Of a stretch of DNA of 64,000 nucleotides, positions 42,021-59,337 are shown in pieces. The position numbers and the translations under genes are program-made. Within the stretch, counting starts at the first letter, position 1. Every line of letters starts with the position of its first letter. The stretch comes from Gammaproteobacteria bacterium (lineage in GTDB: Bacteria; Pseudomonadota; Gammaproteobacteria; UBA4575), in assembly GCA_965221955.1 (NCBI GenBank), contig CBDCTA010000014.1:8342-72341 (forward strand). Direction: 5' to 3'. The notes beneath the pieces are model-generated. The model worked only from the letters and a program-made list of their open reading frames with translations. It made no database searches and had not been told where the DNA came from.

Positions 42021-42097
42021 CGGGGCATAGCGCAGTCTGGTAGCGCATCTGCTTTGGGAGCAGAGGGTCGGGGGTTCGAATCCCTCTGCCCCGACCA
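42021..42097 (+). tRNA. tRNA-Pro (TGG)
   Basis: 77 nt cloverleaf, anticodon arm TCTGC-TTTGGGA-GCAGA, GGTTCGAATCC T-loop, CCA end. Confidence 0.97.
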
Positions 42098-42574: not shown

Positions 42575-42907
42575 TCATCGTTTTCTAGTACGTTGCCTTG
42601 AGTTTTTATTTATTGAATGAGGTCGATTTCCATTTTCGTTAATCCAGTCCGACAAGTCTTCCAAAATATGTAAAAGTTTGGGGTCAGGTAAGCAGTAATA
42701 AATAAATGCACCACGACGCTCGGGTCGAACTAAACCTGCTTCTCGCAAGGCGCGTAGATGAAATGATACGTTAGTTTGTGACAAGCCCGTTGCTTCTACT
42801 ACATCTGAAACGGGCCGACACTCTAACCCAAGACTGTAAAGAATCCGTAATCGATTTGGCTCCCCCAGTAATTTGAATATTGGGGTTAGATGCTTGACAG
42901 TATCCAT
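42575..42907 (-). CDS. ArsR/SmtB family repressor (alternative start 42943)
   Basis: FKLLGEPNRLRIL, LSQTNVSFHLRALREAGLV, RRGAFIYY. Confidence 0.9.
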   Translation of the reverse strand: MDTVKHLTPIFKLLGEPNRLRILYSLGLECRPVSDVVEATGLSQTNVSFHLRALREAGLVRPERRGAFIYYCLPDPKLLHILEDLSDWINENGNRPHSINKNSRQRTRKR

Positions 42908-42909
42908 AG

Positions 42910-42929
42910 ATATGCGTGTAAACTCATAT
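42910..42929. promoter_or_regulatory. ArsR/SmtB-type operator
   Basis: Imperfect inverted repeat ATATGCGT-GTAA-ACTCATAT just upstream of the arsR ATG. Confidence 0.55.
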
Positions 42930-43033
42930 GTGTGGCGGCTCATGTATTTGATACATTATGATGTTAACGAAAAACCGTCAATACATCACTTATTCAAATT
43001 AGCTATCTTATTCAAATTGAGGAGGAGTTAATA

Positions 43034-44245
43034 ATGAAAAAGATATTCGTCAATTTACAGTACTTAGTATTACCAGTCTCACTTGTATTGACATTATTTG
43101 GTGTTGTAATCGGTGGACTTTGGGTTTGGACAGGACTGGCATTGCTTGTAGTAGCAATTGTTACCGATACGCTAGTAACTTCTCATACACAAGGGACAGG
43201 CTATGATAGTAATGGGAAGTCGTTAGCAAGCCCGATATTTCTTAATACTCTTTTGTATGGGGCTGTACCCCTCAACATAATGCTTTTTATCGCTGTTGCC
43301 TGGCGAGTGAATGAATACGCAACAGGTGTTCCAATAAATATTATTGAAGTCGGCGGCCTTACCATTCAACAAGGTACTACTGGGTTAGAACTTAACGGTG
43401 CAATGATGTCCGTAGCAGTTTGGTTGGGATTGACGATCAGTATTTGGCATGAGATTGGACATCGAGGTGGGGTTAGTTTCGTTATTGCTCGCTGGATGAT
43501 GGCATTTGTAGGGTCTGCTCATTTTCCATATGCACATATCTACGATCATCATCTAAGCCTTGGTTTAGAACGTGATCCAGCAACACCACCAAGAGGACGA
43601 AATGTGTTTACACATTTTATTCTTTCTTACTATGGGCAATGTAAATATCTTTTCAAATTTGAAAAAGATCGCCTTACCAAACTTAATAAGTCCTATATTT
43701 CATTGCAAAATGCTTGGATTCGTGGGTGGTTGATGTGCGTGCCGGTGATCGCTCTATTTTGGTTTGCAGGAGGATGGATAGGACTTGGTGTGCTGCTTTA
43801 CCTTTGGGTAATTCCAAACTTTGAATTGGAAGCGTTGAATTATCTTGAACATTATGGATTGATCCGTGAAGAAGGAAAACCGTATGGCCCAAGACATTCA
43901 TGGTGTACTACAACCGCTTTTTCAGACATGCTGTTTTTTGAAATCGGACGACATTCAGACCATCATGAACGTGGAGAAATAGAGTTTTGGAATTTGAAAA
44001 GCTTGGGCGCACCTAACATGGGAAAAGGCTATCTTCCCATGTTTGTATTGGCATTGATTCCTCCCTTGTGGCATCGATACATGAAACACGTATTGGCGGA
44101 ATGGGATGAAAAGTACGCAACAGATGGAGAGCGACAAATTGCGAAAAAAATAAATAAACAAATAGGCTATGAACTTGATCCATCCGAACGAAAGCATGAT
44201 CGAGTTTATTTAATTGACGATACGAGGGGATTAGCTGGTGCGTAA
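43034..44245 (+). CDS. AlkB/XylM-type membrane di-iron monooxygenase (hydroxylase subunit)
   Basis: His boxes HEIGH, HIYDHH, NYLEHYGL, RHSDHH; DPATPPRG; ALIPPLW; strong GAGGAG RBS. Confidence 0.88.
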   Translation: MKKIFVNLQYLVLPVSLVLTLFGVVIGGLWVWTGLALLVVAIVTDTLVTSHTQGTGYDSNGKSLASPIFLNTLLYGAVPLNIMLFIAVAWRVNEYATGVPINIIEVGGLTIQQGTTGLELNGAMMSVAVWLGLTISIWHEIGHRGGVSFVIARWMMAFVGSAHFPYAHIYDHHLSLGLERDPATPPRGRNVFTHFILSYYGQCKYLFKFEKDRLTKLNKSYISLQNAWIRGWLMCVPVIALFWFAGGWIGLGVLLYLWVIPNFELEALNYLEHYGLIREEGKPYGPRHSWCTTTAFSDMLFFEIGRHSDHHERGEIEFWNLKSLGAPNMGKGYLPMFVLALIPPLWHRYMKHVLAEWDEKYATDGERQIAKKINKQIGYELDPSERKHDRVYLIDDTRGLAGA

Positions 44246-44267
44246 TCACATATTTTTTGGCACATAA

Positions 44268-45125
44268 ATGAAACAGAATGTAAAACTTACGGATAGCGAA
44301 ATCAAAAAGATAACCAAAGCACGTTATGGAAAATGTGCTGAATCCGGCGTTGCAAGTTCTTGTTGCGCTATTGATGCATCCCAATCGTCCAGTTTCGCAA
44401 TAGAACACGGGTTGTATACAAAAGAGGACATATCATTAATACCAGATACGGCGCTGAGCTTATCAAGAGGTTGCGGTAATCCCACCGGTTTTGCGGAATT
44501 ACAACCAGGAGAAATTGCAGTGGATTTCGGGTGTGGGGCGGGGATTGACGTTGTTCTTGCAGCAAAAAAAGTAGCACCAAGCGGAAAAGTATTTGGAGTA
44601 GATTTTGCCCCTGAAATGATTCAGAGAGCAAAGCAAGCCGTGATCGAAGCGGAAGTTGCAATCATAGTCGATTTGTATGTTTCTGATTTAGATAAAACAG
44701 ACCTTTCCGATAGTTTTGCTGATGTAGTAATGTCAAATTGTGTAATCAATTTGTGTCCAGATAAAGAAGAAGTTTATCGAGAAGCCTTTCGCATTTTAAA
44801 ACCCGGGGGTCGTCTCGCCATATCCGATGTTATTTATACTGAGAAACTCGATCCGCAAATTCATGAGCGTTTTAAAACAGCTTGGTCCGGTTGTGTTGGA
44901 GGTGCAATCGAAAAAGACAGGTATTTTAATATTATTGAAAATATTGGATTTATAGATCTTAAAATTGTATCCGAACATCTACTTGCATCGAATGAGCTAA
45001 ACGAAATGGCATGTTGTCCCGGCGCCGAATATACTCCGGTTCCTGCAAAAGAAGACTTAGCTGTTACTGAAAACAAAATTGAAAGTGTAAAATTTACTGC
45101 AGATAAGCCACTCGGGTCTAATTGA
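44268..45125 (+). CDS. arsM: Arsenite S-adenosylmethionine methyltransferase ArsM-like
   Basis: SSCCA, GCGNP, DFGCGAGID, SNCVINL, LKPGGRLAISD, WSGCVGGA. Confidence 0.82.
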   Translation: MKQNVKLTDSEIKKITKARYGKCAESGVASSCCAIDASQSSSFAIEHGLYTKEDISLIPDTALSLSRGCGNPTGFAELQPGEIAVDFGCGAGIDVVLAAKKVAPSGKVFGVDFAPEMIQRAKQAVIEAEVAIIVDLYVSDLDKTDLSDSFADVVMSNCVINLCPDKEEVYREAFRILKPGGRLAISDVIYTEKLDPQIHERFKTAWSGCVGGAIEKDRYFNIIENIGFIDLKIVSEHLLASNELNEMACCPGAEYTPVPAKEDLAVTENKIESVKFTADKPLGSN

Positions 45126-48946: not shown

Positions 48947-50398
48947 TCAACAAGAATGGATTTTTGGTAGTTCCAACACCGCTTCTAATCCACCTTCATT
49001 TCGGTTATGAAGATATATTTCACCTCCACTAACTCTAGCTATATCTCGGGCAATCCCAAGTCCTAAACCTACACCTCCAGATGATCGATTACGCGATGAT
49101 TCTAATCGAAAGAATGGGTCAAAAATATGTTCCATTTGCTCTTCAGGTATCCCTGGGCCTTCATCTACTATTCTAATTGATAACATTTTTGCCGATTCTT
49201 CAATGTAGATGGTTGCCTTGTCACCATAACGAACGGCATTTTCCATTAAGTTTGTAAGACATCGCTTCAATGCAAGCGGATACCCATTATGAAGTTTTTG
49301 TTCTCCTTCATTGAATTCTATTTCATGCCCAGCTTCTCGCATATCTTGGGTGATACTACTAATTAACGCACTGACATCTATTTTTTGTATAGGTTCAGTT
49401 TTATCCTGGCCGCACATATAGTCTAACGTTTCGTTAACCATGCTTTGCATGTCATCTAAGTCACTTAAAAATTTATTTGCCAATTCTGTATCATTAAGTA
49501 ATTCCGTGCGCAACCGCAATCGTGTAATTGGTGTTTTTAAGTCATGTGAAATTGCTGCAAGTAATCGACCTCTATCTTCTATGTGCTGATTAATTTTGGC
49601 TTGCATAATATTAAAAGCACGTGCGGCTTTGCTTACTTCTTGCGGGCCACTTTCATCGATTGGAGCACGTTCAATATCTCTCCCTAGCTCATCTGCTGCG
49701 AATGCTAAAGCGTTAATTGGTTTAGTAATTTTGTGCACAATAAACAAGGATAAGAAAAATGCAGTAACCACTAATATTAATAGTGTGGTGATAATGCGAT
49801 GAGGAAAATTAAACAAGGCCTCGGGAAAATGTTGTATAAAACTTACCCATGATCCATCATCTAATTTAACTTGAATTAGAATATGATACTCTGTAAACGA
49901 CCATGTACCCATCATTTCGTATACCATTTTTAACGCTCTATTAATACCATAGCTTATTCTAGAGTTATTCGAATTGTCTGATGAGCCATTTTTTTTTGTT
50001 TCAAAATTGTTATTAATCTGATGTTCATGTTTTTCGATAAACTGAATGTGAATGGGATAATTTTGATCTAATACGTTGGCAAATGAATTACGTATAGACT
50101 TTTGTATCTGGTTACCGTTTTGGGTTGATTCTTGGAGTGGTTTAATATCAAAAGAAACGCGTAGATCAGATGAATTAAATGCTTTAATGGCTTTTTCTCT
50201 CGCTTGCGGTGTAAGTTCATTTAAAAAACGCACCATTGAAGATACTTGTTCTACGGACTTTAACTCCAATATCTTGTGAAGAGACTGTCCTCTCTCATAG
50301 TATAAAATTATTCCGCTTATTATTTGAGCCAACGAGAGTATGACTAGAAGCGTTATCATTAGTTGAGCAAACAATGATTGTGGCCACAATCGAGACAT
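48947..50398 (-). CDS. HAMP-domain sensor histidine kinase
   Basis: Two TMs, AISHDLKTP, NLMENAVRYG, DEGPG, GVGLGL. Confidence 0.94.
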   Translation of the reverse strand: MSRLWPQSLFAQLMITLLVILSLAQIISGIILYYERGQSLHKILELKSVEQVSSMVRFLNELTPQAREKAIKAFNSSDLRVSFDIKPLQESTQNGNQIQKSIRNSFANVLDQNYPIHIQFIEKHEHQINNNFETKKNGSSDNSNNSRISYGINRALKMVYEMMGTWSFTEYHILIQVKLDDGSWVSFIQHFPEALFNFPHRIITTLLILVVTAFFLSLFIVHKITKPINALAFAADELGRDIERAPIDESGPQEVSKAARAFNIMQAKINQHIEDRGRLLAAISHDLKTPITRLRLRTELLNDTELANKFLSDLDDMQSMVNETLDYMCGQDKTEPIQKIDVSALISSITQDMREAGHEIEFNEGEQKLHNGYPLALKRCLTNLMENAVRYGDKATIYIEESAKMLSIRIVDEGPGIPEEQMEHIFDPFFRLESSRNRSSGGVGLGLGIARDIARVSGGEIYLHNRNEGGLEAVLELPKIHSC

Positions 50399-51117
50399 TA
50401 TTTTTCTACCTTTACATTAACAGCAAATATATAACCTTCATTTCTAACTGTTTGGATAATTTTCGAGTTTTTAGTGTCATGAAGTGAACGACGTAATCTA
50501 CTCACCATAACATCTATACTGCGATCAAATGGCTGCATCTCACGGCCATGGGAAAGATCAAGTAACTGATCACGACTTAGTACTCTATTTGGATGTGTTA
50601 AAAAAATATACAGCAATTGATATTCACCTCCACTTATTGGGACTACAATATTCTCAGGGGAGATAAGATGTCTATTTACAGTATCTAACCTCCAATCACC
50701 AAAGAGAAAATATCTAGAAGTTTGTTGAATTGTGGATGATGATAAAGTGCGGGTTCGCCGTAATATACTTTTAATTCGTGCTAAAAGTTCGCGTGAGTTA
50801 AATGGTTTTGCTAGATAATCATCCGCGCCCATCTCTAGCCCAATAATGCGCTCGGTCTCTTCGCCACGGGCTGTAAGCATAATTACTGGAATAGTAGATT
50901 TCGATCTGAGATTGCGACACAACACAAGCCCATCATCCCCGGGTAACATTAAATCGAGAACGATCAGGTCAATTTTACTTTTATCCAGAACAGCCCACAT
51001 CTCTTTACCATCCGATGCAGTTATCGTTCGAAAACCCTCTTTTTTTAAGTAATCACTGAGTAAATTGCGGATCTCAAGATCATCGTCAACGATCAAAACA
51101 GTGTCAGTTTTGTCCAT
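50398..51117 (-). CDS. OmpR family response regulator
   Basis: IVDDD, LDLMLPG, GADDYLAKPF, DRSIDV..RLR, TVRNEGY. Confidence 0.95.
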   Translation of the reverse strand: MDKTDTVLIVDDDLEIRNLLSDYLKKEGFRTITASDGKEMWAVLDKSKIDLIVLDLMLPGDDGLVLCRNLRSKSTIPVIMLTARGEETERIIGLEMGADDYLAKPFNSRELLARIKSILRRTRTLSSSTIQQTSRYFLFGDWRLDTVNRHLISPENIVVPISGGEYQLLYIFLTHPNRVLSRDQLLDLSHGREMQPFDRSIDVMVSRLRRSLHDTKNSKIIQTVRNEGYIFAVNVKVEK

Positions 51118-51160
51118 CTGGAAAGTGTAAGCATTAAATGAAATCTTTCAATAAATATTT

Positions 51161-51239
51161 TTGTAACGCTTTATTACTGAATCCCAATAGGAAATATTAG
51201 GTTACAAAAGCCCGAGTTTTCGAAATTATCCCGTTACAA
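51161..51239. promoter_or_regulatory. Repeated GTTACAA boxes (candidate response-regulator sites)
   Basis: TTGTAAC 51161-51167, GTTACAA 51201-51207 and 51233-51239 in the divergent intergenic region. Confidence 0.45.
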
Positions 51240-51298
51240 GGGAATGGTTTACTAAGCATAACCAAGATAGAAAAGCAGATGAGGTCGAGAGATAGGTT

Positions 51299-51781
51299 AT
51301 GGCGGGGCTTTACATTAATTTCAATCTTAAAGTATTAACATCGATGGTTGGCTTAGCTGTTGTAATTCTATTGAGTAGCATTATTACAACGGGTTGTGCA
51401 ACCAATCGAATTAATCTAGCGAATACAGAGCAGATTGAAGTTATAAAAAATTCGTCAAGGTCCGCAAAAATTACAAAACTTGCAGTTTATTCTAACAACT
51501 CAGGCATTTCTGTGTCGGGAGAATTACGCAAACGTATACCTAGTAGAGGACGTCTATACGGTCATGTGGATGTTGGTGTCTTATCGCCTGATGGCAAAGT
51601 ACTTTTCACAACGAATACTAGTTACCATCGTAAAAAACGCAAATCTTACACGTCAAAATTCACTGTAGACATCCCTTTCGTGCTGGAGCGCGGTAGCACA
51701 ATTCGCGTAACTCATCACCGTGTCCCCTTAGGGTGGCATAAATCTATTATTTTAAATATTCATTCAATCAATAGGAGTTAA
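51299..51781 (+). CDS. Hypothetical basic lipoprotein
   Basis: Hydrophobic stretch ending ITTGC; GHVD motif. Confidence 0.6.
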   Translation: MAGLYINFNLKVLTSMVGLAVVILLSSIITTGCATNRINLANTEQIEVIKNSSRSAKITKLAVYSNNSGISVSGELRKRIPSRGRLYGHVDVGVLSPDGKVLFTTNTSYHRKKRKSYTSKFTVDIPFVLERGSTIRVTHHRVPLGWHKSIILNIHSINRS

Positions 51782-51783
51782 AC

Positions 51784-52278
51784 ATGAAAACATTAAAAAC
51801 AATATCACTCGCACTGTTCATGAGCATTGCGTTTGCAATGATCACGACAGTGAGCGCATCAGAAATGAAGCATGAACATAAGGGAACTACTAGTTCCGAA
51901 TCTCACCAAGCGCATGCAAATATGCAAAAAATGCATGCGCATATGCAGAAAATGCAGAAGGAAATGGATGCCATCCGTGCAGAAAAAAATCTAGATAAAC
52001 GCAAAGAGCTTATGCAAGCGCATCGTAAGAGCATACGCGAAGGCATGGAAATGATGATGCAAGATGATAGCGGCAAAGGAATGATGGGTAAGACAAAAGG
52101 AGATATACATGAGGCCATGAAAAAAGAAGGAAAAATGGATGCACATGCGCGAGTAGGAAATATGGAAGAACATTTAGATTTGATGCAACAGATGATGGAG
52201 CAAATGATGCAACATCAAAATGAGGCTTATGAATTATTTGAAGCGTATAGAGAGCTTGACAGAGATCTTGGGTCTTAA
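51784..52278 (+). CDS. Exported Met/His-rich protein, paralog 1
   Basis: AGGAG RBS, signal peptide, MQKMHAHMQKM, RKELMQAH, LMQQMMEQMMQH. Confidence 0.8.
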   Translation: MKTLKTISLALFMSIAFAMITTVSASEMKHEHKGTTSSESHQAHANMQKMHAHMQKMQKEMDAIRAEKNLDKRKELMQAHRKSIREGMEMMMQDDSGKGMMGKTKGDIHEAMKKEGKMDAHARVGNMEEHLDLMQQMMEQMMQHQNEAYELFEAYRELDRDLGS

Positions 52279-52385
52279 TTAATTGCTTTACGTTGATCAG
52301 ATTTAAAAGTATTAAATAAAAAAATTAAATAAAAATACTTCTGAATACTAACTTCAAACTCATACTAAATTATATGGAGAGAAAT

Positions 52386-52907
52386 ATGAAAACATTAAAA
52401 ACTACATTAATCGTGCTATCTATGAGCATGTTAGCACTGATAACTACAATAGCTTATGCGGAAGAAAACAAGCATGAGCACAAAAGAACGTCAACTTCTG
52501 AGTCGCACAAAAGCCATGCGCATATGGAAAAAATGCACGAGCACATGAAAGAAATGCAGGAGCAAATGCAGGCTATTCATGCAGAAAAAGATCCTGAAAA
52601 AAGAAAGGAACTCATGGGGGCACATCGCAAAAGTATGCATGAACATATGCAGATGATGCATGGCATGATGAGTGATGGAAAGATGGGTGGCGGAATGATG
52701 ATGGGAATGCACGGTGGTGCTGATAAAAAAGGCCATGGTGACAAACCTAAGCATGGAAAAAGTGCAATGATGGATCCTGAGTCACGCATGGGCATGATGG
52801 AAAAACGTATGGACATGATGCAAATGATGATGGACCAAATGATGCAACATCAGGAAGCAAGGATTAATACCACTGAGGAATACTTAAAAAAAGGTAGTCC
52901 TAGATAG
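52386..52907 (+). CDS. Exported Met/His-rich protein, paralog 2
   Basis: Same MKTLKT start, EKDPEKRKELMGAH, MMQMMMDQMMQH. Confidence 0.8.
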   Translation: MKTLKTTLIVLSMSMLALITTIAYAEENKHEHKRTSTSESHKSHAHMEKMHEHMKEMQEQMQAIHAEKDPEKRKELMGAHRKSMHEHMQMMHGMMSDGKMGGGMMMGMHGGADKKGHGDKPKHGKSAMMDPESRMGMMEKRMDMMQMMMDQMMQHQEARINTTEEYLKKGSPR

Positions 52908-52933
52908 TATTAGCCTAGCTTGAGTTCGATGAA

Positions 52934-52967
52934 GGGAGTCAGCGATTAATTATGCTGGCTCCCATTT
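52934..52967 (+). terminator. Probable intrinsic terminator
   Basis: GGGAGTCAGC / GCTGGCTCCC stem followed by ATTT. Confidence 0.5.
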
Positions 52968-53015
52968 GGCTGACTTATCATCATAGGAAGATAGGTACAT
53001 ATTGGTCAAAATGTA

Positions 53016-53047
53016 TTGAACTCTAGACTCAGGTCCAGACTTAAGCT
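53016..53047 (+). promoter_or_regulatory. MerR-type promoter with long spacer
   Basis: TTGAAC-20 nt-TAAGCT with dyad TCTAGAC-TCAG-GTCCAGA. Confidence 0.7.
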
Positions 53048-53070
53048 TTTGTGACCAAGGAGGTAATTGG

Positions 53071-53478
53071 ATGCTAACAATTGGTAAATTAGCTAAAGCT
53101 ACCAATGCGAGTATCGATACGATTCGATATTACGAGCGTATGGGACTGGTAAGCCCTGATGCTCGATCTGCTCATGATTATCGAATGTATGAAGAGTCTG
53201 CAATCAATCGTTTACGTTTTATTAAAAATGCACAGCAGTTAGGGTTCTCACTTTCAGAAATTGAAAAGCTACTCACTTTTGGCGCCTCTAACAATGGTTC
53301 TGCTAGTGACATCTTGAACCTCACTCAAGAAAAAATCTTAGCGCACAGAAATAAGATTAAAGAATTGCAAAAAATACAAGCAGTGCTTACCGATTTAGCA
53401 AAACAGTGCTCAGGTAAAGGCCCTGCTAAAGATTGTCCGATTCTTCAAGCGTTATACCCTGATTCAGGTGAAAAATGA
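53071..53478 (+). CDS. CueR-like MerR family regulator
   Basis: TIRYYERMGL, LGFSLSEI, C-terminal CSGKGPAKDCPIL, no Cys at the start of the dimer helix. Confidence 0.85.
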   Translation: MLTIGKLAKATNASIDTIRYYERMGLVSPDARSAHDYRMYEESAINRLRFIKNAQQLGFSLSEIEKLLTFGASNNGSASDILNLTQEKILAHRNKIKELQKIQAVLTDLAKQCSGKGPAKDCPILQALYPDSGEK

Positions 53479-53499
53479 AAGCAGTCACAGGAGCAAAAT

Positions 53500-53772
53500 A
53501 TGACAACAAATAAAAATGTAAGCACAGGTCAGCATGATGGGAATATGAATAGCAGTACACCCAATACATCATTCTTCTCGCGCAACTGGGCAATAATACT
53601 AATATCTGGTGTGATTGGATTTTACTTGGTTACGGAACACACGGCTCATTTATTAGGGGCACTACCTTGGCTGATTTTATTGGCCTGTCCTTTGATTCAC
53701 GTATTTATGCATCGAGGTCATGGTGGGCATGATCATACACAACCTCATCAAAAAGAGGTGAATGATGAATAG
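53500..53772 (+). CDS. DUF2933 family small membrane protein
   Basis: EHTAHL..LLACPLIHVFMHRGHGGH. Confidence 0.85.
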   Translation: MTTNKNVSTGQHDGNMNSSTPNTSFFSRNWAIILISGVIGFYLVTEHTAHLLGALPWLILLACPLIHVFMHRGHGGHDHTQPHQKEVNDE

Positions 53773-54433
53773 CCATGATGCGATTCAAAGTTATGGTTTA
53801 TGGGGTTTAGTCATCATTAACTCCCTAGTATTTATTATCTTCGCGTTTAGCTTTACGAAACCAAACACATCAAGAGACTGGCGTTCCTTTGGTGCATTTT
53901 CAGCCTTTATCGTTGCGCTGTTTGCAGAGATGTATGGATTTCCGTTGACGATATATTTTCTATCAGGTTGGTTAAGTGCGAATTACCCAAGTGTAGATTT
54001 ATATTCTCATGAAAATGGGCATCTTTGGCATTTATTAATAAACCTTGGTGGCGATCCACATTTCAATTTAATTCATATACTCAGCATTGCATTAATCCTT
54101 GCAGGGTTTTTCTTACTCTCCGCTTCTTGGAAAGTTCTTTATGCCGCACAAAAGCAACACCAGCTTGCAACAACAGGGCCTTACTCGCGTATCCGTCATC
54201 CTCAATATATTGGGTTTTTCCTCATCATGCTGGGATTCTTAGTGCAATGGCCAACTATACTTACGCTACTCATGTTTCCCATTTTGACATACATGTATTA
54301 CCGGTTAGCAAAAAAAGAAGAACGAGAAGTAGAGGATGAATACGGAGAAATATATACAAAGTATGCTGAACGTGTTCCTGCCTTCATTCCTAAATTTGGA
54401 GAACGATATGATGCTTATCGCGAACAAAAATAA
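53762..54433 (+). CDS. Isoprenylcysteine carboxyl methyltransferase family membrane protein
   Basis: ALFAEMYGFPLT, TGPYSRIRHPQY, VPAFIP. Confidence 0.88.
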   Translation: MMNSHDAIQSYGLWGLVIINSLVFIIFAFSFTKPNTSRDWRSFGAFSAFIVALFAEMYGFPLTIYFLSGWLSANYPSVDLYSHENGHLWHLLINLGGDPHFNLIHILSIALILAGFFLLSASWKVLYAAQKQHQLATTGPYSRIRHPQYIGFFLIMLGFLVQWPTILTLLMFPILTYMYYRLAKKEEREVEDEYGEIYTKYAERVPAFIPKFGERYDAYREQK

Positions 54434-54875
54434 TGATTGGATGCGAGCACACTATTTAAGACCACTTTATGTGTCTTTGATCTTATCGGTATTCGCAGAA
54501 CTTATTTTGTTTCTTTATTTTGGTGTTCTTATAAACGATGAAGGGAACATGCTAAATAAGTTTCTGTGGTCAGTTATTTTTTGTGGAATTGGAATGGGGA
54601 GTGTATTTGGGATAGCAATCTTAGTATTTGTGTTAGATCGTATGACTGGGTGGTTTGCAATATCGATGACAACAGCACTTGCAATTATTTTCTTCGGTGT
54701 TTGTAACTTTATATGTTTTAGATTAGATCAAAAATTTAATTACTTTGGAGGTATAAATAATCCTGAACTATTTCTATTTACTGGATGGTTGCTGTCTATT
54801 CTCGGAGGTTTACTGATTGGAACGCTTTTGTTTACAGACACTGGAAACAGACTATTGAATCGGCTAGGCATTTGA
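54408..54875 (+). CDS. Hypothetical 4-TM membrane protein
   Basis: GGAGA RBS before ATG 54408; four hydrophobic segments; CNFIC. Confidence 0.65.
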   Translation: MMLIANKNNDWMRAHYLRPLYVSLILSVFAELILFLYFGVLINDEGNMLNKFLWSVIFCGIGMGSVFGIAILVFVLDRMTGWFAISMTTALAIIFFGVCNFICFRLDQKFNYFGGINNPELFLFTGWLLSILGGLLIGTLLFTDTGNRLLNRLGI

Positions 54876-54927
54876 ATATAAAGACAGCATCCTGTAATTG
54901 ATGAAATTTTAAACAAAGGAGATAGCT

Positions 54928-55161
54928 ATGGCTCAATTTTTAGGAGATATAGCATTTATATTGGAATCGATGCTACTTGTAAGTGGCTTAGTTATTTATT
55001 ACTTCGCATTAGAGAGAAAATCGAAGTTGCTCAAGTTTACAGCGATTATCGCAATAATCATTAGCTTGCTAGGTATGCTATGTACGGGATATTACTGGTT
55101 TAGTTATCTATCGCAAGGTGCATTTCAAACAGCATTTCTAAATGTACCTGCTAACACATAG
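54928..55161 (+). CDS. Small 2-TM hypothetical protein
   Basis: AAGGAG RBS; two hydrophobic helices. Confidence 0.65.
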   Translation: MAQFLGDIAFILESMLLVSGLVIYYFALERKSKLLKFTAIIAIIISLLGMLCTGYYWFSYLSQGAFQTAFLNVPANT

Positions 55162-55197
55162 TCTTAATATTTATTTAAATACAAAGGAGAACAAATC

Positions 55198-55551
55198 ATG
55201 AGAAAAGCATTAACAACTATGCTACTTATCTTATTCGTAGCCAGTGCAACTAGTTATGCAAAAGATTCATTAATGCATCAATCGCATGAAAAGTTACAAC
55301 AAGTACAACAAGAAATGTTGGTCATTAAGAAAACAGAAGATCCAGTGAAACGCAAACAATTACTTGATGAGCATTTAAAAACTATGCAGGAATTTAGCGA
55401 CATTATGCTACAAGTACAACATGATCCAAAACGTGGAGAAGAAAGCGTAATAATGGGAGAAATTATGTTTGAACGAATTAAATATTTAGAAAAGATGATG
55501 CACCAATTACTCGAGTATCAAAGTGAACGAGCAAAAATTAAAGATATGTAG
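55198..55551 (+). CDS. Exported helical protein, distant paralog of the Met/His-rich pair
   Basis: AAGGAG RBS, signal peptide, TEDPVKRKQLLDEH, LEKMMHQLLEYQ. Confidence 0.72.
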   Translation: MRKALTTMLLILFVASATSYAKDSLMHQSHEKLQQVQQEMLVIKKTEDPVKRKQLLDEHLKTMQEFSDIMLQVQHDPKRGEESVIMGEIMFERIKYLEKMMHQLLEYQSERAKIKDM

Positions 55552-55638
55552 TAATACGCTTAGATGAATGAGTGTATATCAATTCAATATAGAAATTAAT
55601 TAATTATTAGTTATTTCACTATTTTTAAGGAGCACACT

Positions 55639-55770
55639 ATGACACATCATGACGGGGGATTTTTTACTCATTGGGGGTTTGGATTTGGCCATTGGACACT
55701 TGGCATCCTATTTTGGGCGGTAATACTAATCGTGATTGTAGTTGGTATAAAAGCGATCCTAAAAAAATAA
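55639..55770 (+). CDS. 43-aa His/Trp/Gly-rich single-TM peptide (not in ORF track)
   Basis: AAGGAG RBS; MTHHDGGFFTHWGFGFGHWTLGILFWAVILIVIVVGIKAILKK. Confidence 0.72.
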   Translation: MTHHDGGFFTHWGFGFGHWTLGILFWAVILIVIVVGIKAILKK

Positions 55771-55813
55771 TAAGTTCAAGTATGGAAAGACGGTATAAAC
55801 AGAGAACAAAATT

Positions 55814-56383
55814 ATGAAAATTCTCAACACTGCTGTATTTTTAATTCTTCTCGCAATAATTTTAGGAGTTGGGTTTGTCTATTCTGGATACTTAAATGTA
55901 GGTGCAAATGTAGAACACAGTAAGCTAAGTAACTGGTTACTGGATACTACTATGCAAAAATCAGTGGAGCGGAGTGCACAAAACTTAGCATTTAAAGTGC
56001 CTGCATTGGGTGATCACGCATTAATCATAAAAGGTGCTGAGAATTACGATGTGATGTGCGCAATTTGTCATACCCCACCTGGTGGATCTCATTCACCTTT
56101 AGCCCAAGGATTAAATCCTGTACCTCCAGATTTGCAAGTATCTGGTAAACGCATGACAGACAAGGAGCTTTTTTGGATAACTAAAAACGGCATTCGCATG
56201 ACAGGAATGCCTGCTTGGGGCGAAACCCACAACGAAGAGGTTATTTGGTCGATGGTAGCGTTTATCAAAACGTTACCTAACTTAGGTCCAGATGAATATA
56301 AAAGAATGGTCGAGTTAGCAAAACGAAAAGGTCTACATATGGAACCAAATGATGACTCCTCACATGTTGGCCACCAACATTGA
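55814..56383 (+). CDS. Membrane-anchored monoheme cytochrome c
   Basis: CAICH, GLNPVPPDL, NGIRMTGMPAWG; His-rich tail. Confidence 0.9.
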   Translation: MKILNTAVFLILLAIILGVGFVYSGYLNVGANVEHSKLSNWLLDTTMQKSVERSAQNLAFKVPALGDHALIIKGAENYDVMCAICHTPPGGSHSPLAQGLNPVPPDLQVSGKRMTDKELFWITKNGIRMTGMPAWGETHNEEVIWSMVAFIKTLPNLGPDEYKRMVELAKRKGLHMEPNDDSSHVGHQH

Positions 56384-56415
56384 ATTTAAATCTTAAGTAT
56401 CTAGAGATAAAAAAT

Positions 56416-59337
56416 ATGTCTGAACTCAAAAAATCATCAAACGTTAGAGAAATACTGGGTAATAAAATTGATCCTATAACTGGACGTGCAATTGATCCAG
56501 TTTGTGGGATGGGAGTTTTAAAACATGTCCATTATCAATATACGTTTGATAATAAAATATATAAATTCTGCAATGAAGATTGCTTAAATGATTTCAAAGC
56601 AAATCCATTAAAATACATAGCAGACTCAATTGATACGGAAGCTAATACAAATGATGTAAATAATGCCAGTACCGAAGACATCAATAAAAAATCAAATGCA
56701 CATTCCTGTTGTACTGAGCCTAAACATGAGAGCAAATCGTCTTGTTGTTCAGAGAATGATATAGAAAACCAATCATGTGGATGCTCAAATGAGAGCTCTA
56801 CACAAATAGTTACAAAACATGAGGATAACGAATCGAATACAGAACATATGGCTGAAAAATTAATAAAAGCAAAACTAATTGTACCAGGAATGGGAAGTGA
56901 TCACTGCGCGGGACTAGTTACTACTTCTTTACAACGCCTTAGTGGTGTTGGAGAAATTAAAACTAACATTGTCTCACATCATGTTGATGTAAAATATGAA
57001 CCGTCGAAACTACAGCTTTCAGATCTTAAAAGTGCTGTTGTGAAAGCAGGTTATGAAGTAGATTCCATTTCAAACGAAAGTGCTGATGAGCTATTCATGA
57101 TAGTTCCAGGTATGGGCAGTGACCATTGTGCAGGAATTATTTCTGAATCAATTCATCGATTACCGGGTATTATTAATGTGCAAACAAACATATCCAATCA
57201 TCGAGTCACTGTTCAATTTCAACCTGATTTAACTGACAGCAATGCTATTCAAGCTGCGGCAGTGCATGCAGGTTATGAGGTTGCAAATATTGAGCATACA
57301 GCACCGAAAGCTTCACTAAAAGAAGATGAATCTGAAGCGAGATATTTAAAACAAGCTTGGCATCGCTTTTTGTTTGCTGCAATCCCTACCACATTAATCA
57401 TGTTATTGATGATCCCCGAAATGTTTTGGAAACCTATACCCGGTTATCTTCTCTTTATAGCGATACTAGGATTTCCTGTAATTTTTCTTTACGGTGGTCT
57501 GGCCACACACCGCTCGGCTTGGCGTTCTTTAACTAATCGCACCGCCAACATGGATGTGTTGATCTCAATGGGAAGTCTTCCTCCATACTTAATTGGTTTG
57601 ATTGGTTTTGTTTACCCCATGACTTCATTTATTGAAATGGCAGCCACAATTATGACTTTTCATATGTTGGGCCGTTACCTTGAAACCCGAGCCAAAGGAC
57701 GGGCATCTCAAGCAATAAAAAGATTGCTTAAGCTTGGCGCAAAGACTGCAACTACCCTACGTGGCGGTCAAGAAATCGAGATTCCGATAGCGGAATTAAA
57801 AGTTGGCGACATTATGCTAATTCGTCCGGGAGCAAAAATTCCCACCGATGGAGAAATAATGGAAGGTAATAGTCATTTTGACGAATCCATTGCAACAGGC
57901 GAGTCTGTTCCTATAGAAAAAGGGCCTGGTGATAATGTAATTGGTGCCACGATAAACAAAGAAGGACTTTTAAAAGTGCGTGCCACCAAAATTGGTGCAG
58001 ATACATTTCTTGCACAAGTCATTCGTTTGGTAGAAGAGGCTCAGGGTTCAAAGGTACCTATTCAAGAATTTGCCGACCGTGTAACCGCCAAATTTGTACC
58101 TGGAGTAATTTTAATTGCATTAATCAGCTTTATAGTGTGGCTAATATATGCAGATTCGCTACGGCCCATTCTCGTATGGGGATCTGGTTTTTTACCTTGG
58201 GTGGATGCAGATTTAACCCCTTTATTACTAGCAATTCTCGCATCCGTTGCTGTACTGGTTATTGCCTGTCCCTGTGCACTGGGTCTCGCAACACCTACCG
58301 CTATCATGGTGGGTTCGGGAATGGGCGCAGAACGCGGCATTCTAATTCGGTCTGGTGAAGCCATTCAAACTTTAAAAGACATCAAAATGGTCGTGCTCGA
58401 TAAAACGGGCACCATTACTGAAGGTAAACCAGCATTAACAGATGTCATTGCAAATGAGAGTTTCAATGAAGATGAGGTTTTAAAACTTGCAGCATCTGTA
58501 GAAGATGGATCAGAACATCCACTAGGGCAAGCTATTGTGTCTGGTGCACGAAAACGTGGGATAGATATCCCTGTTGTTAAAGAGTTTAAAGCAATAACTG
58601 CAAGGGGTGTTGAAGGAAAAATTGATAGACAGCAAGTCTATGTCGGTAGTCGTCGTTTACTAGGTGAGCTTGGTATTGAACTTGGTAATTTAGATGAACC
58701 ATTGACTCGTCTTGAAACAGAAGGAAAAACCGCGATGCTTGTTGCAATTGAAGACCAGGCTGCAGGACTTGTTGCAGTTGCTGACACAATTAAATCCGAT
58801 TCCAAAGCTGCAATTGATGCGATGCACCAAATGAATATCAAGGTAGCTATGGTTACTGGTGATAACGAGCGCACAGCCCATTATGTTGCAGATCAAGTAG
58901 GTATTGATGAAGTGCTGGCAGGTGTATTACCGGAAGGTAAAGTTGATGCAATTAGGAAATTACAAACTGACTATGGAGAACATGTTGCCATGGTAGGTGA
59001 TGGCATTAACGATGCACCTGCTCTCAAACAAGCAAATGTCGGAATTGCAATTGGTGCAGGAGCGGATGTTGCAATAGAGGCCGCAGACGTTACCTTGGTT
59101 AAGGGTGAGCTCACAAACTTTATTGAAGCGATACGTTTATCACGCGCTACTTTTAGAAAAATTTTAGAGAATCTATTTTGGGCTTGGTTTTATAACCTCG
59201 CTGCAATTCCTATTGCAGCTGTCGGATTATTGCATCCAATGATTGGTGTTATTGCAATGACAATTAGCTCATTATCAGTAGTAGGTAATTCAATCTTACT
59301 TAAACGAGTTCGGTTAGAAGTATCCAATAAAGCCTAA
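56416..59337 (+). CDS. copA: Cu(I)-translocating P1B-type ATPase with YHS, Cys-rich linker and two HMA domains
   Basis: DPVCGM, TGES, ACPCALG, DKTGT, SEHP, GDGINDAP, YN and MxxSS; HMA motifs read GMGSDHC. Confidence 0.9.
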   Translation: MSELKKSSNVREILGNKIDPITGRAIDPVCGMGVLKHVHYQYTFDNKIYKFCNEDCLNDFKANPLKYIADSIDTEANTNDVNNASTEDINKKSNAHSCCTEPKHESKSSCCSENDIENQSCGCSNESSTQIVTKHEDNESNTEHMAEKLIKAKLIVPGMGSDHCAGLVTTSLQRLSGVGEIKTNIVSHHVDVKYEPSKLQLSDLKSAVVKAGYEVDSISNESADELFMIVPGMGSDHCAGIISESIHRLPGIINVQTNISNHRVTVQFQPDLTDSNAIQAAAVHAGYEVANIEHTAPKASLKEDESEARYLKQAWHRFLFAAIPTTLIMLLMIPEMFWKPIPGYLLFIAILGFPVIFLYGGLATHRSAWRSLTNRTANMDVLISMGSLPPYLIGLIGFVYPMTSFIEMAATIMTFHMLGRYLETRAKGRASQAIKRLLKLGAKTATTLRGGQEIEIPIAELKVGDIMLIRPGAKIPTDGEIMEGNSHFDESIATGESVPIEKGPGDNVIGATINKEGLLKVRATKIGADTFLAQVIRLVEEAQGSKVPIQEFADRVTAKFVPGVILIALISFIVWLIYADSLRPILVWGSGFLPWVDADLTPLLLAILASVAVLVIACPCALGLATPTAIMVGSGMGAERGILIRSGEAIQTLKDIKMVVLDKTGTITEGKPALTDVIANESFNEDEVLKLAASVEDGSEHPLGQAIVSGARKRGIDIPVVKEFKAITARGVEGKIDRQQVYVGSRRLLGELGIELGNLDEPLTRLETEGKTAMLVAIEDQAAGLVAVADTIKSDSKAAIDAMHQMNIKVAMVTGDNERTAHYVADQVGIDEVLAGVLPEGKVDAIRKLQTDYGEHVAMVGDGINDAPALKQANVGIAIGAGADVAIEAADVTLVKGELTNFIEAIRLSRATFRKILENLFWAWFYNLAAIPIAAVGLLHPMIGVIAMTISSLSVVGNSILLKRVRLEVSNKA

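What the first reader, a model, noticed from the sequence alone, without database searches (positions are those of the whole stretch)
42575..45125. arsR / AlkB-type di-iron monooxygenase / arsM: candidate new organoarsenic pathway
Seen: a monooxygenase with all four His boxes lies 22 nt upstream of, and co-oriented with, a methyltransferase carrying the ArsM cysteine motifs, and both are divergent from an ArsR regulator. No rubredoxin, ferredoxin or reductase gene is adjacent. Known: ArsM pairs with other enzymes to build organoarsenicals (ArsS for arsenosugars, ArsL for arsinothricin), and AlkB/XylM enzymes hydroxylate methyl and alkyl groups. I know of no described AlkB-ArsM pairing. Inference: the pair could make or modify arsenolipids, or oxidise methylated As(III) species. 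Caveat: arsM has no clear RBS and the island is mosaic, so the adjacency may be accidental.
Basis: partly seen in the sequence, partly recalled or inferred. Interest (0 to 1): 0.75.

Follow-up and report, generated by a model that had tools for sequence, protein, structure and literature searches.

The report
Conserved AlkB-like oxygenase–arsM gene pair
A membrane iron oxygenase gene and an arsenic-methylating enzyme gene sit together as a small operon in one group of marine bacteria, which hints at, but does not prove, a new step in arsenic handling.

Summary
The window holds an ArsR/SmtB regulator (42575-42943, -), then 90 nt, then a 403-aa AlkB/XylM-family di-iron membrane oxygenase (43034-44245, +), then 22 nt, then a 285-aa ArsM-type methyltransferase (44268-45125, +). 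No redox partner is adjacent.

The oxygenase ("AlkB403") keeps all nine iron-binding histidines. ArsM keeps the arsenite-binding cysteines.

The adjacency is not accidental. The alkB403-arsM pair recurs in at least five diverged lineages of one genus-level clade (dS above 1.2 between the window and two others). In those lineages arsM starts 4 nt after the alkB403 stop, and the surrounding genes differ each time.

The pairing is also not obligatory. AlkB403 occurs without arsM in G040, L110 and L171, and an orthologous arsM occurs without AlkB403 in G002. The arsR is unique to this genome.

More distant paralogues (about 52% identity) sit with a ferredoxin and a XylA-type reductase.

In this genome the cluster lies beside tRNA-Pro, at a synteny break that opens a copper-type resistance island. 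No Acr3, ArsB or ArsH was found.

I rate co-expression as likely and a shared arsenic pathway at about 0.4.

The parts
42021..42097 (+). tRNA-Pro (TGG). It marks the synteny break that opens the variable region.
   Evidence: ARAGORN. Same-genus genomes G020, G008 and G009 have the same PPIase-tRNA-Pro order but unrelated DNA after it.
42575..42943 (-). ArsR/SmtB-family regulator (P0001, 122 aa), divergent from alkB403. The effector is unknown.
   Evidence: HTH_5 2e-13; NF033788 76.9 bits against a cut-off of 55. The closest solved structures are CzrA and SmtB. C42 is conserved in 121 of 121 homologues and C84 in 120 of 121. No homologue in the other 55 genomes of the order.
42944..43033 (.). 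90-nt divergent spacer holding a 12-nt direct repeat (42989-43000 and 43007-43018) and a strong purine-rich ribosome-binding site before alkB403.
   Evidence: the repeat finder; sequence read. No promoter-like match in the spacer, and the scan as a whole was at shuffle level: 13 found against 11.5 expected.
43034..44245 (+). AlkB403: a 403-aa AlkB/XylM-family integral-membrane di-iron oxygenase (P0002) with nine His ligands. Clade-specific features are W138, C291 and a C-terminal tail of about 22 aa.
   Evidence: It is 29.7% identical to pWW0 XylM and 33.7% to a Hydrocarboniclastica AlkB-like protein over 93% of its length.
44246..44267 (.). 22-nt spacer with no Shine-Dalgarno sequence. The spacer is 4 nt in the six other pair loci.
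44268..45125 (+). ArsM-type SAM methyltransferase (P0003, 285 aa).
   Evidence: NF008823 232.9 bits against a cut-off of 263; Methyltransf_31 9e-26. Solved ArsM structures 5evj, 8xt7 and 4fr0 match at 1e-21 to 1e-23, with Cys72, Cys174 and Cys224 aligned.

Best explanation
alkB403 and arsM form a two-gene operon that is inherited, and apparently relocated, as a unit in one sub-lineage of a marine gammaproteobacterial family. Named relatives in that family are sponge-associated or sulfur-oxidiser MAGs.

In this genome the operon sits beside tRNA-Pro at the head of a metal-resistance island. A foreign ArsR/SmtB regulator, read divergently, would control both genes.

Shown here:
- ArsM has the SAM fold and the arsenite-binding cysteines.
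- AlkB403 has a complete nine-His di-iron site.
- Both genes are under purifying selection.
- arsM starts 4 nt (here 22 nt) after the alkB403 stop, with no ribosome-binding site of its own. This fits coupled translation.

Inferred:
- ArsM methylates As(III). No Acr3, ArsB or ArsH was found in this 96.6%-complete genome.
- AlkB403 draws electrons in trans from the ferredoxin and XylA-type reductase of a paralogue's operon.
- AlkB403 oxygenates a membrane-soluble arsenical made by ArsM. The most likely reaction is oxidation of trivalent methylated species to pentavalent oxides, by analogy with AlkB sulfoxidation. Less likely is hydroxylation of an alkyl-arsenical.

My odds: same transcription unit about 0.85; same arsenic pathway about 0.4, which is the confidence given; the specific As(III)-to-As(V) reaction about 0.2.
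For: - The pair is present in the window and in L005, L080, L107, L111, L112 and L156, which is 7 of 13 AlkB403 loci with downstream sequence.
- The spacer is 4 nt in six of these and 22 nt here, and no lineage has a Shine-Dalgarno sequence before arsM.
- The flanking genes differ in every lineage where flank was available: window, L005, L080, L107.
- Divergence is deep. AlkB403 is 82-87% and ArsM 70-92% identical between lineages. dS is 1.3-2.2 between the window and L005 or L107, and dN/dS is 0.05-0.19.
- The pair-linked ArsMs form one clade in a FastTree drawing with no support values shown.
- An ArsR-family gene found nowhere else in the order was placed upstream of alkB403, not upstream of arsM.
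- The genes downstream in the island are metal genes.
- No Acr3, ArsB or ArsH was found in G000.
- GPo1 AlkB is reported to catalyse sulfoxidation and demethylation (PMC11591199, passage).
- AlkB403 has two unique substitutions at positions next to iron ligands. W138 and C291 are found in 12 of 12 AlkB403 sequences. The paralogues have Gly and Asp in 71 of 71. Five named AlkB/XylM references have a small residue and Asn.
Against: - AlkB403 exists without arsM. In G040 no ArsM was found genome-wide at E<=1e-20, and this lineage also covers L006, L108, L109 and L162. L110 has a RimI-like GNAT downstream instead. L171 is a fragment.
- An orthologous arsM (70% identity) stands alone in G002, with no AlkB403 in that genome.
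- W138, C291 and the C-terminal tail are unchanged in the arsM-less lineage, so they were not shaped by the pairing.
- All pair carriers belong to one narrow clade, so they amount to one origin plus inheritance.
- None of 6 other ArsM loci had an AlkB gene within about 1.5 kb. Four of these came from a 400-genome class sample and two from this order. One of them has only 411 nt of upstream sequence.
- No redox partner is adjacent, and the reductase of the paralogue operon reads in two frames in G000.
- ArsM falls under its NCBIfam cut-off.
- There are no expression or chemical data.
Confidence: 0.4

Rival explanations
1. The two genes are co-transcribed but functionally unrelated. arsM is a stand-alone arsenite detoxification gene that landed behind, and now rides on, the expression of a lineage-specific AlkB/XylM paralogue. 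That paralogue's substrate is a hydrocarbon, lipid or other alkyl compound. The pair persists by descent within one narrow clade.
For: Each gene occurs alone in sister lineages. AlkB403's diagnostic residues are identical with and without arsM. The residue aligned with FtAlkB W62 is Leu, the long-chain-alkane type (alignment; PMC10110569 passages). The family carries 1-4 AlkB paralogues in 49 of 56 genomes, so AlkB chemistry is a core trait unrelated to arsenic. The pairing was not seen at the 6 other ArsM loci inspected.
Against: The flanks differ in every lineage while the pair and its 4-nt junction are kept at saturated dS. An ArsR-family regulator was recruited in front of alkB403. arsM lacks its own ribosome-binding site, so its output depends on alkB403.
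Confidence: 0.38
2. The pair builds or remodels arsenolipids. ArsM supplies dimethylated arsenic, and AlkB403 hydroxylates the terminal methyl group of a long alkyl chain. The target would be arsenic-containing hydrocarbons or fatty acids, or AlkB403 would prepare an alkyl acceptor.
For: The substrate-channel gate residue is the long-chain type (Leu38 against FtAlkB W62). The lineage is marine and its named relatives are sponge-associated (record titles). ArsM is said to feed arsenosugar and arsenolipid synthesis in marine organisms (PMC5552862, passage).
Against: No gene for C-As bond formation, such as a radical-SAM ArsS- or ArsL-type gene, was seen in the flanks of any pair locus I inspected. 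The pair contains only two genes. AlkB403 also exists in an ArsM-free genome.
Confidence: 0.1
3. The methyltransferase is not an arsenic enzyme in vivo. It would methylate another soft nucleophile, such as Se, Te, Sb or a thiol, or a product of AlkB403.
For: It scores under the NF008823 cut-off (232.9 against 263). NCBI names close relatives only 'methyltransferase domain-containing protein'.
Against: Three arsenite-binding cysteines align with CmArsM, and a Cys-Cys pair sits in the N-terminal region. This meets the published working criterion of a SAM domain plus at least 3 of 4 Cys (PMC5552862, passage). Its best matches among solved structures are all ArsMs.
Confidence: 0.07

Closest known systems
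arsR-arsM type methylation determinants and the organoarsenical ars genes (arsM, arsI, arsH, arsP)
   Same: An ArsR-family regulator sits next to an ArsM-type methyltransferase, with an accessory gene in the same unit. The logic of pairing methylation with an enzyme that disarms trivalent methylarsenicals is the same as for ArsH, described as a methylarsenite oxidase in the abstract of PMC6138428.
   Different: The accessory enzyme here is an integral-membrane di-iron oxygenase, not a soluble FMN protein. No ArsB or Acr3 efflux pump was found in the genome, although the introduction of PMC6138428 calls such a pump a usual minimal constituent. The ArsR lacks the Cys-Val-Cys site that I recall from the plasmid R773 ArsR (recalled, not tested).
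XylM/XylA xylene monooxygenase (plasmid pWW0) and relatives linked to a 2Fe-2S reductase
   Same: It belongs to the same enzyme family. AlkB403 is 29.7% identical to XylM over 93% of its length. Rooted on the two other AlkBs (Rhodococcus and the rubredoxin-linked Marinobacter one), the tree places the XylM/pNL1 pair as the nearest of the named references to AlkB403 plus its paralogues. The paralogues have a XylA-type reductase in their operon, as XylM does.
   Different: AlkB403 has no reductase beside it and sits with arsM. It carries Trp before the first His motif and Cys after the H-S-W motif, where XylM and AlkB have a small residue and Asn.
AlkB alkane 1-monooxygenase (FtAlkB structures 8sbb and 8f6t; P. 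putida GPo1 AlkB)
   Same: Nine His in four motifs, the N-Y-x-E-H-Y-G-L motif, and residues equivalent to L141, L274 and L318 that position the substrate are all conserved.
   Different: Identity to a rubredoxin-linked plasmid AlkB is only about 25% (row H14). No rubredoxin is adjacent; the genome's one rubredoxin lies elsewhere, at C29:596233. No alk catabolic genes are nearby.
ArsM pairings that build organoarsenicals (arsQML for arsinothricin; arsS/arsM for arsenosugars)
   Same: arsM is clustered with a second enzyme gene inside an ars context (abstract of PMC8552651, seen in the listing).
   Different: Those partners are radical-SAM enzymes that form C-As bonds (recalled). Here the partner is an oxygenase, and no such gene was seen in the flanks inspected.

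Membership tests
ArsM (As(III) SAM methyltransferase) | SAM-dependent class I methyltransferase domain | tested here: met
   Methyltransf_31 9e-26 and Methyltransf_11 5e-20.
ArsM (As(III) SAM methyltransferase) | At least 3 of the 4 conserved cysteines (CmArsM 44, 72, 174, 224), the criterion used in PMC5552862 | tested here: met
   C69, C158 and C209 align with Cys72, Cys174 and Cys224 of 4fr0. A Cys-Cys pair at 32-33 lies in the N-terminal region, outside that alignment. All are invariant in 21 of 21 orthologues.
ArsM (As(III) SAM methyltransferase) | Score over the curated NCBIfam cut-off (NF008823) | tested here: not met
   232.9 bits against a cut-off of 263, matched over profile positions 3-268 of 272. 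This is a near miss.
ArsM (As(III) SAM methyltransferase) | Methylates arsenite | not testable with these tools
   Needs an enzyme assay.
AlkB/XylM integral-membrane di-iron monooxygenase | Nine His ligands in four motifs | tested here: met
   H139, H143, H168, H172, H173, H273, H307, H310 and H311 align with the FtAlkB ligands. All are invariant in 12 of 12 orthologues.
AlkB/XylM integral-membrane di-iron monooxygenase | Significant full-length sequence match to characterised members | tested here: met
   8sbb 1.6e-29; XylM pWW0 1e-32 over residues 7-381; Pfam FA_desaturase 83 bits against a cut-off of 29.7. No NCBIfam model matched.
AlkB/XylM integral-membrane di-iron monooxygenase | Dedicated electron donor (rubredoxin or XylA-type reductase) encoded alongside | tested here: not met
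   None among the scanned ORFs from 37.2 to 60 kb, and none at other AlkB403 loci. Donors exist elsewhere in the genome.
AlkB/XylM integral-membrane di-iron monooxygenase | Hydroxylates alkyl C-H bonds | not testable with these tools
   Needs an assay.
ArsR/SmtB metalloregulator | Winged-helix HTH_5 domain over the subfamily cut-off | tested here: met
   NF033788 76.9 bits against a cut-off of 55; PF01022 50.4 against 22.
ArsR/SmtB metalloregulator | A recognised As(III)-binding cysteine site | tested here: inconclusive
   The protein has only two Cys, C42 and C84, and both are near-invariant in 121 homologues. The closest solved relatives are the Zn sensors CzrA and SmtB. No equivalog cut-off was reached. 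The comparison with known As sites rests on recall.
Classical ars operon | As(III) efflux permease (ArsB or Acr3) present | tested here: not met
   TIGR00832 and PF02040 were not found in G000, which is 96.6% complete.

The most novel reading that the evidence does not exclude
AlkB403 is a new kind of ars gene. It would be a membrane-embedded nine-His di-iron oxygenase, marked by a Trp and a Cys next to its iron ligands, that takes lipophilic arsenicals made by ArsM and oxygenates them. The reaction could be oxidation of As(III) to As(V) oxide, or hydroxylation of an alkyl-arsenical on the way to or from arsenolipids. This would give marine, symbiont-type bacteria that lack arsenite pumps a methylate-and-oxygenate route for arsenic.
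Probability: 0.35. Interest if true: 0.8.

Novelty: new variant of a known kind. Interest (0 to 1): 0.5.

Why it matters
Several ars genes (arsH, arsI, arsP, arsL, arsS) were, as I recall, first noticed because they sit beside arsM or arsR. An AlkB-type oxygenase would add a new enzyme class to that list.

It would also offer a candidate for two open problems. One is how aerobes without ArsH or efflux pumps cope with the toxic trivalent products of their own ArsM. The other is which enzymes act on the alkyl chains of marine arsenolipids.

The pair has only two genes, so it can be tested by simple co-expression and arsenic speciation.

If the link is false, the finding reduces to an ordinary arsM riding behind a lineage-specific AlkB paralogue.

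Tried and rejected
- **Complex prediction (AlkB403 with ArsM, own alignments A1 and A2):** no answer, score 0.00 against a mark of 0.32. I do not use it either way.

- **Sequencing runs:** no RNA holder was listed, so there is nothing on expression.

- **The search of earlier findings:** closed.

- **The look-up of encoding contigs:** stated as closed, so I did not call it. As a result, the contigs behind P0004-P0013, P0124-P0150 and P0243-P0249 could not be inspected. Equal 'longest contig' lengths suggest more pairs: 33838 for P0005 and P0125, 3329 for P0009 and P0138, and 5074 for P0011 and P0140. A length of 1300 for P0013 and P0245 suggests a second arsR-alkB403 contig. This is inference from lengths only.

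- **Promoter and terminator scan:** at shuffle level, so uninformative.

- **att-type repeat of the tRNA-Pro end downstream:** none seen.

- **Independent acquisition of arsM next to alkB403:** rejected. The pair-linked ArsMs are monophyletic.

- **GNAT gene after AlkB403 in L110 as an ArsN:** rejected. It passes the RimI model (89.7 against 86.4) and is far below the ArsN cut-offs.

- **Position of C291 and W138 relative to the irons:** no passage on the equivalent FtAlkB residues in PMC10110569 or PMC10113152, and no coordinates are available from the tools.

- **Literature searches:**
  - 'arsM' + 'alkane monooxygenase': 0 papers.
  - 'arsM' + 'fatty acid desaturase': 1 unrelated review.
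  - 'arsenolipid' + 'arsM' + 'gene cluster': 6 papers, none about AlkB by title or abstract.
  - 'Porisulfidus' and 'Oxydemutator': 4 and 1 papers, listings only.
  - Supplements were closed and not seen. Gene-neighbourhood tables in PMC5552862 might bear on the novelty claim.
Full report
**What is there**

ORF listing and translation confirm three genes.
- An ArsR/SmtB regulator lies at 42575-42943 on the minus strand.
- A 403-aa membrane protein lies at 43034-44245 (+), 90 nt away and divergent from the regulator.
- A 285-aa methyltransferase lies at 44268-45125 (+), 22 nt further on.

*The membrane protein.* It matches Pfam FA_desaturase (3.9e-23). It also matches the solved alkane monooxygenase FtAlkB (8sbb, 1.6e-29, residues 28-351). 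I laid that alignment against the residue numbers in PMC10110569 (passages read). All nine iron-binding histidines are present, as are the N-Y-x-E-H-Y-G-L motif and the residues equivalent to L141, L274 and L318. The residue aligned with the chain-length gate W62 is Leu. No NCBIfam model matched.

*The methyltransferase.* It scores 232.9 bits on NF008823 'arsenite methyltransferase', under the cut-off of 263. Its best matches among solved structures are all ArsMs. C69, C158 and C209 align with CmArsM Cys72, Cys174 and Cys224. This meets the working criterion quoted in PMC5552862 (passage).

*The regulator.* It passes the ArsR/SmtB subfamily model. Its nearest solved relatives are the zinc sensors CzrA and SmtB.

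**The organism and its other AlkBs**

The window is contig C14 of a 2.69-Mb, 29-contig genome that is 96.6% complete.

The genome has four AlkB-family genes. In its order (56 genomes, one family), 49 of 56 genomes have at least one.

The window's copy, which I call AlkB403, belongs to a small, long-branched clade. Orthologues are 76-89% identical to it. Every other hit is at most about 54% identical.

I compared AlkB403 with five named references: XylM of pWW0, two other enzymes linked to a 2Fe-2S reductase, one rubredoxin-linked AlkB and a Rhodococcus AlkB. AlkB403 and the family's 'core' paralogues form sister groups nearest the XylM type.

The core paralogues sit in conserved operons. One operon reads MsrB, AlkB, a 59-aa ferredoxin, a GST-like protein and a 360-aa XylA-type 2Fe-2S/FNR reductase. 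I named these from their sequences and did not scan them against Pfam. Another sits with FabA and a MerR/B12-type regulator.

AlkB403 has no such partner anywhere.

**Is the alkB403-arsM adjacency more than chance?**

I collected AlkB403 loci from species-representative genomes, JGI metagenome contigs and the order's genomes.

Thirteen loci have usable downstream sequence.
- Seven carry arsM directly after alkB403: the window, L005, L080, L107, L111, L112 and L156.
- Six do not: L006, L108, L109 and L162 (one 77%-identity lineage, G040), L110 and the fragment L171.

By identity, the seven represent about five lineages, because L005 equals L112 and L080 is close to L111.

Several observations argue for a unit under selection.
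- In the six non-window loci, arsM starts 4 nt after the alkB403 stop.
- No lineage has a Shine-Dalgarno sequence before arsM.
- The genes on either side differ wherever flank was available, in the window, L005, L080 and L107.
- dS between the window and L005 or L107 is 1.3-2.2, and dN/dS is 0.05-0.19.

So the pair is the only conserved block, it is old, and both genes are under purifying selection. That is good evidence for one transcription unit that moves as a unit.

**What limits the claim**

- All carriers belong to one genus-level clade, and the pair-linked ArsMs are monophyletic. This means one origin plus inheritance.
- AlkB403 lives without arsM in G040, where no ArsM was found genome-wide at E<=1e-20.
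- In L110 the next gene after AlkB403 is RimI-like.
- A 70%-identical arsM stands alone in G002, which has no AlkB403.
- In a 400-genome sample of the class, ArsM (E<=1e-50) was found in 5 genomes including this one. None of the 4 foreign loci, nor 2 distant ArsM-like loci of the order, had an AlkB gene in the roughly 1.5-kb flanks. One of those loci has only 411 nt of upstream sequence.
- The arsR is private to this genome. It has no homologue at E<=1e-15 in the other 55 genomes and none at any other pair locus.
- The arsR's wider family (121 homologues) keeps two cysteines, C42 and C84, and its effector is unknown.

**Setting in this genome**

tRNA-Pro lies at 42021-42097. Three same-genus genomes share the upstream genes and the tRNA, but nothing from 41.9 to 64 kb.

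After arsM, the variable region carries the following genes:
- an EamA exporter
- PPK2
- a two-component system
- three proteins that share repeated DNA segments and have no Pfam match
- a MerR regulator
- an ICMT-like methyltransferase
- a cytochrome c
- a heavy-metal P-type ATPase

The genome yielded no Acr3, ArsB or ArsH. It has two ArsC-family genes and one ArsP_1-family permease elsewhere.

**Clues in the enzyme**

Three positions separate AlkB403 from the core paralogues: 12 of 12 AlkB403 sequences against 71 of 71 paralogues.
- Position 138, just before the first His motif, is Trp in AlkB403 and Gly in the paralogues.
- Position 291, just after H-S-W, is Cys in AlkB403 and Asp in the paralogues.
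- Position 307 is His in AlkB403 and Gln in the paralogues.

All five named references have a small residue, Asn and His at these positions.

So AlkB403 keeps the canonical ligand set and carries two unique residues beside it. The core paralogues lack one canonical His. These features are also present in the arsM-less lineage, so they do not arise from the pairing.

**Reading**

I rate co-expression at about 0.85 and a shared arsenic pathway at about 0.4.

The mechanism I commit to is as follows. ArsM methylates As(III), and AlkB403 oxygenates the lipophilic trivalent products in the membrane. AlkB403 would draw electrons in trans from the ferredoxin and reductase of a paralogue's operon. The analogy is with the sulfoxidation reported for GPo1 AlkB (PMC11591199, passage), and the role would be the one ArsH plays elsewhere (PMC6138428, abstract).

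The near-equal rival is an unrelated AlkB paralogue with arsM as a passenger. An arsenolipid role (about 0.1) and a non-arsenic methyltransferase (about 0.07) remain possible.

I found no description of an AlkB-ArsM pairing in the searchable literature. Supplements were closed.

Noticed in passing
G000 C26:24500-25645, C29:202077-203219, C29:141322-142476; loci L007-L078: The family's 'core' AlkB paralogues have Gln in place of the first His of the last His motif in 71 of 71 sequences. That His is one of the nine ligands described as invariant and indispensable in PMC10110569. AlkB403 and five named AlkB/XylM references keep the His.
   Followed up: partly
G000 C26:24500-25645 versus C29:202077-203219: Two core AlkB copies share a 1156-bp tract at 99.65% identity that covers just the gene, while their flanks are unrelated. 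Twin copies with near-zero branch lengths recur in many related genomes. This suggests concerted evolution or gene conversion between two differently placed paralogues.
   Followed up: partly
G000 C26:26822-27899: The XylA-type 2Fe-2S/FNR reductase of the AlkB-ferredoxin operon reads in two overlapping frames in this genome. This could be a frameshift or an assembly error. It is intact (360 aa) in relatives such as L013.
   Followed up: no
window 42021-42097 and 41866-64000: tRNA-Pro marks a synteny break against three same-genus genomes. At least 22 kb downstream, running to the contig end, is unmatched within the 12-17 kb compared after tRNA-Pro in each of those genomes. No integrase or att repeat was seen among the ORFs scanned.
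   Followed up: partly
window 48947-59337: A copper-type metal island. It holds a two-component system (48947-51117), three proteins sharing repeated DNA segments and with no Pfam match (51299-52907), a MerR regulator (53071-53478), a cytochrome c (55814-56383) and a 985-aa P-type ATPase with HMA and YHS domains (56380-59337).
   Followed up: partly
window 53762-54433: A membrane ICMT/PEMT-family methyltransferase lies in the same island. It has weak, sub-threshold matches to isoprenylcysteine and methanethiol S-methyltransferase models. This is a second methyltransferase near arsM.
   Followed up: no
window 42989-43018: A 12-nt direct repeat occurs twice, 18 nt apart, in the arsR-alkB403 spacer just upstream of the alkB403 ribosome-binding site. 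It may be an operator.
   Followed up: no
window 42575-42943 (P0001): This ArsR belongs to a widespread subfamily (837 proteins at E<=1e-10). C42 is invariant in 121 of 121 and C84 in 120 of 121 of the aligned sequences (the query plus the 120 best hits), and a third Cys at position 36 is present in 83 of 121. No equivalog model fits it, and its effector is unknown.
   Followed up: partly
L106 9245-9685 (G002): Where the orthologous arsM stands alone, it is followed on the same strand by a 146-aa ORF that looks hydrophobic by eye and has no Pfam or NCBIfam match.
   Followed up: no
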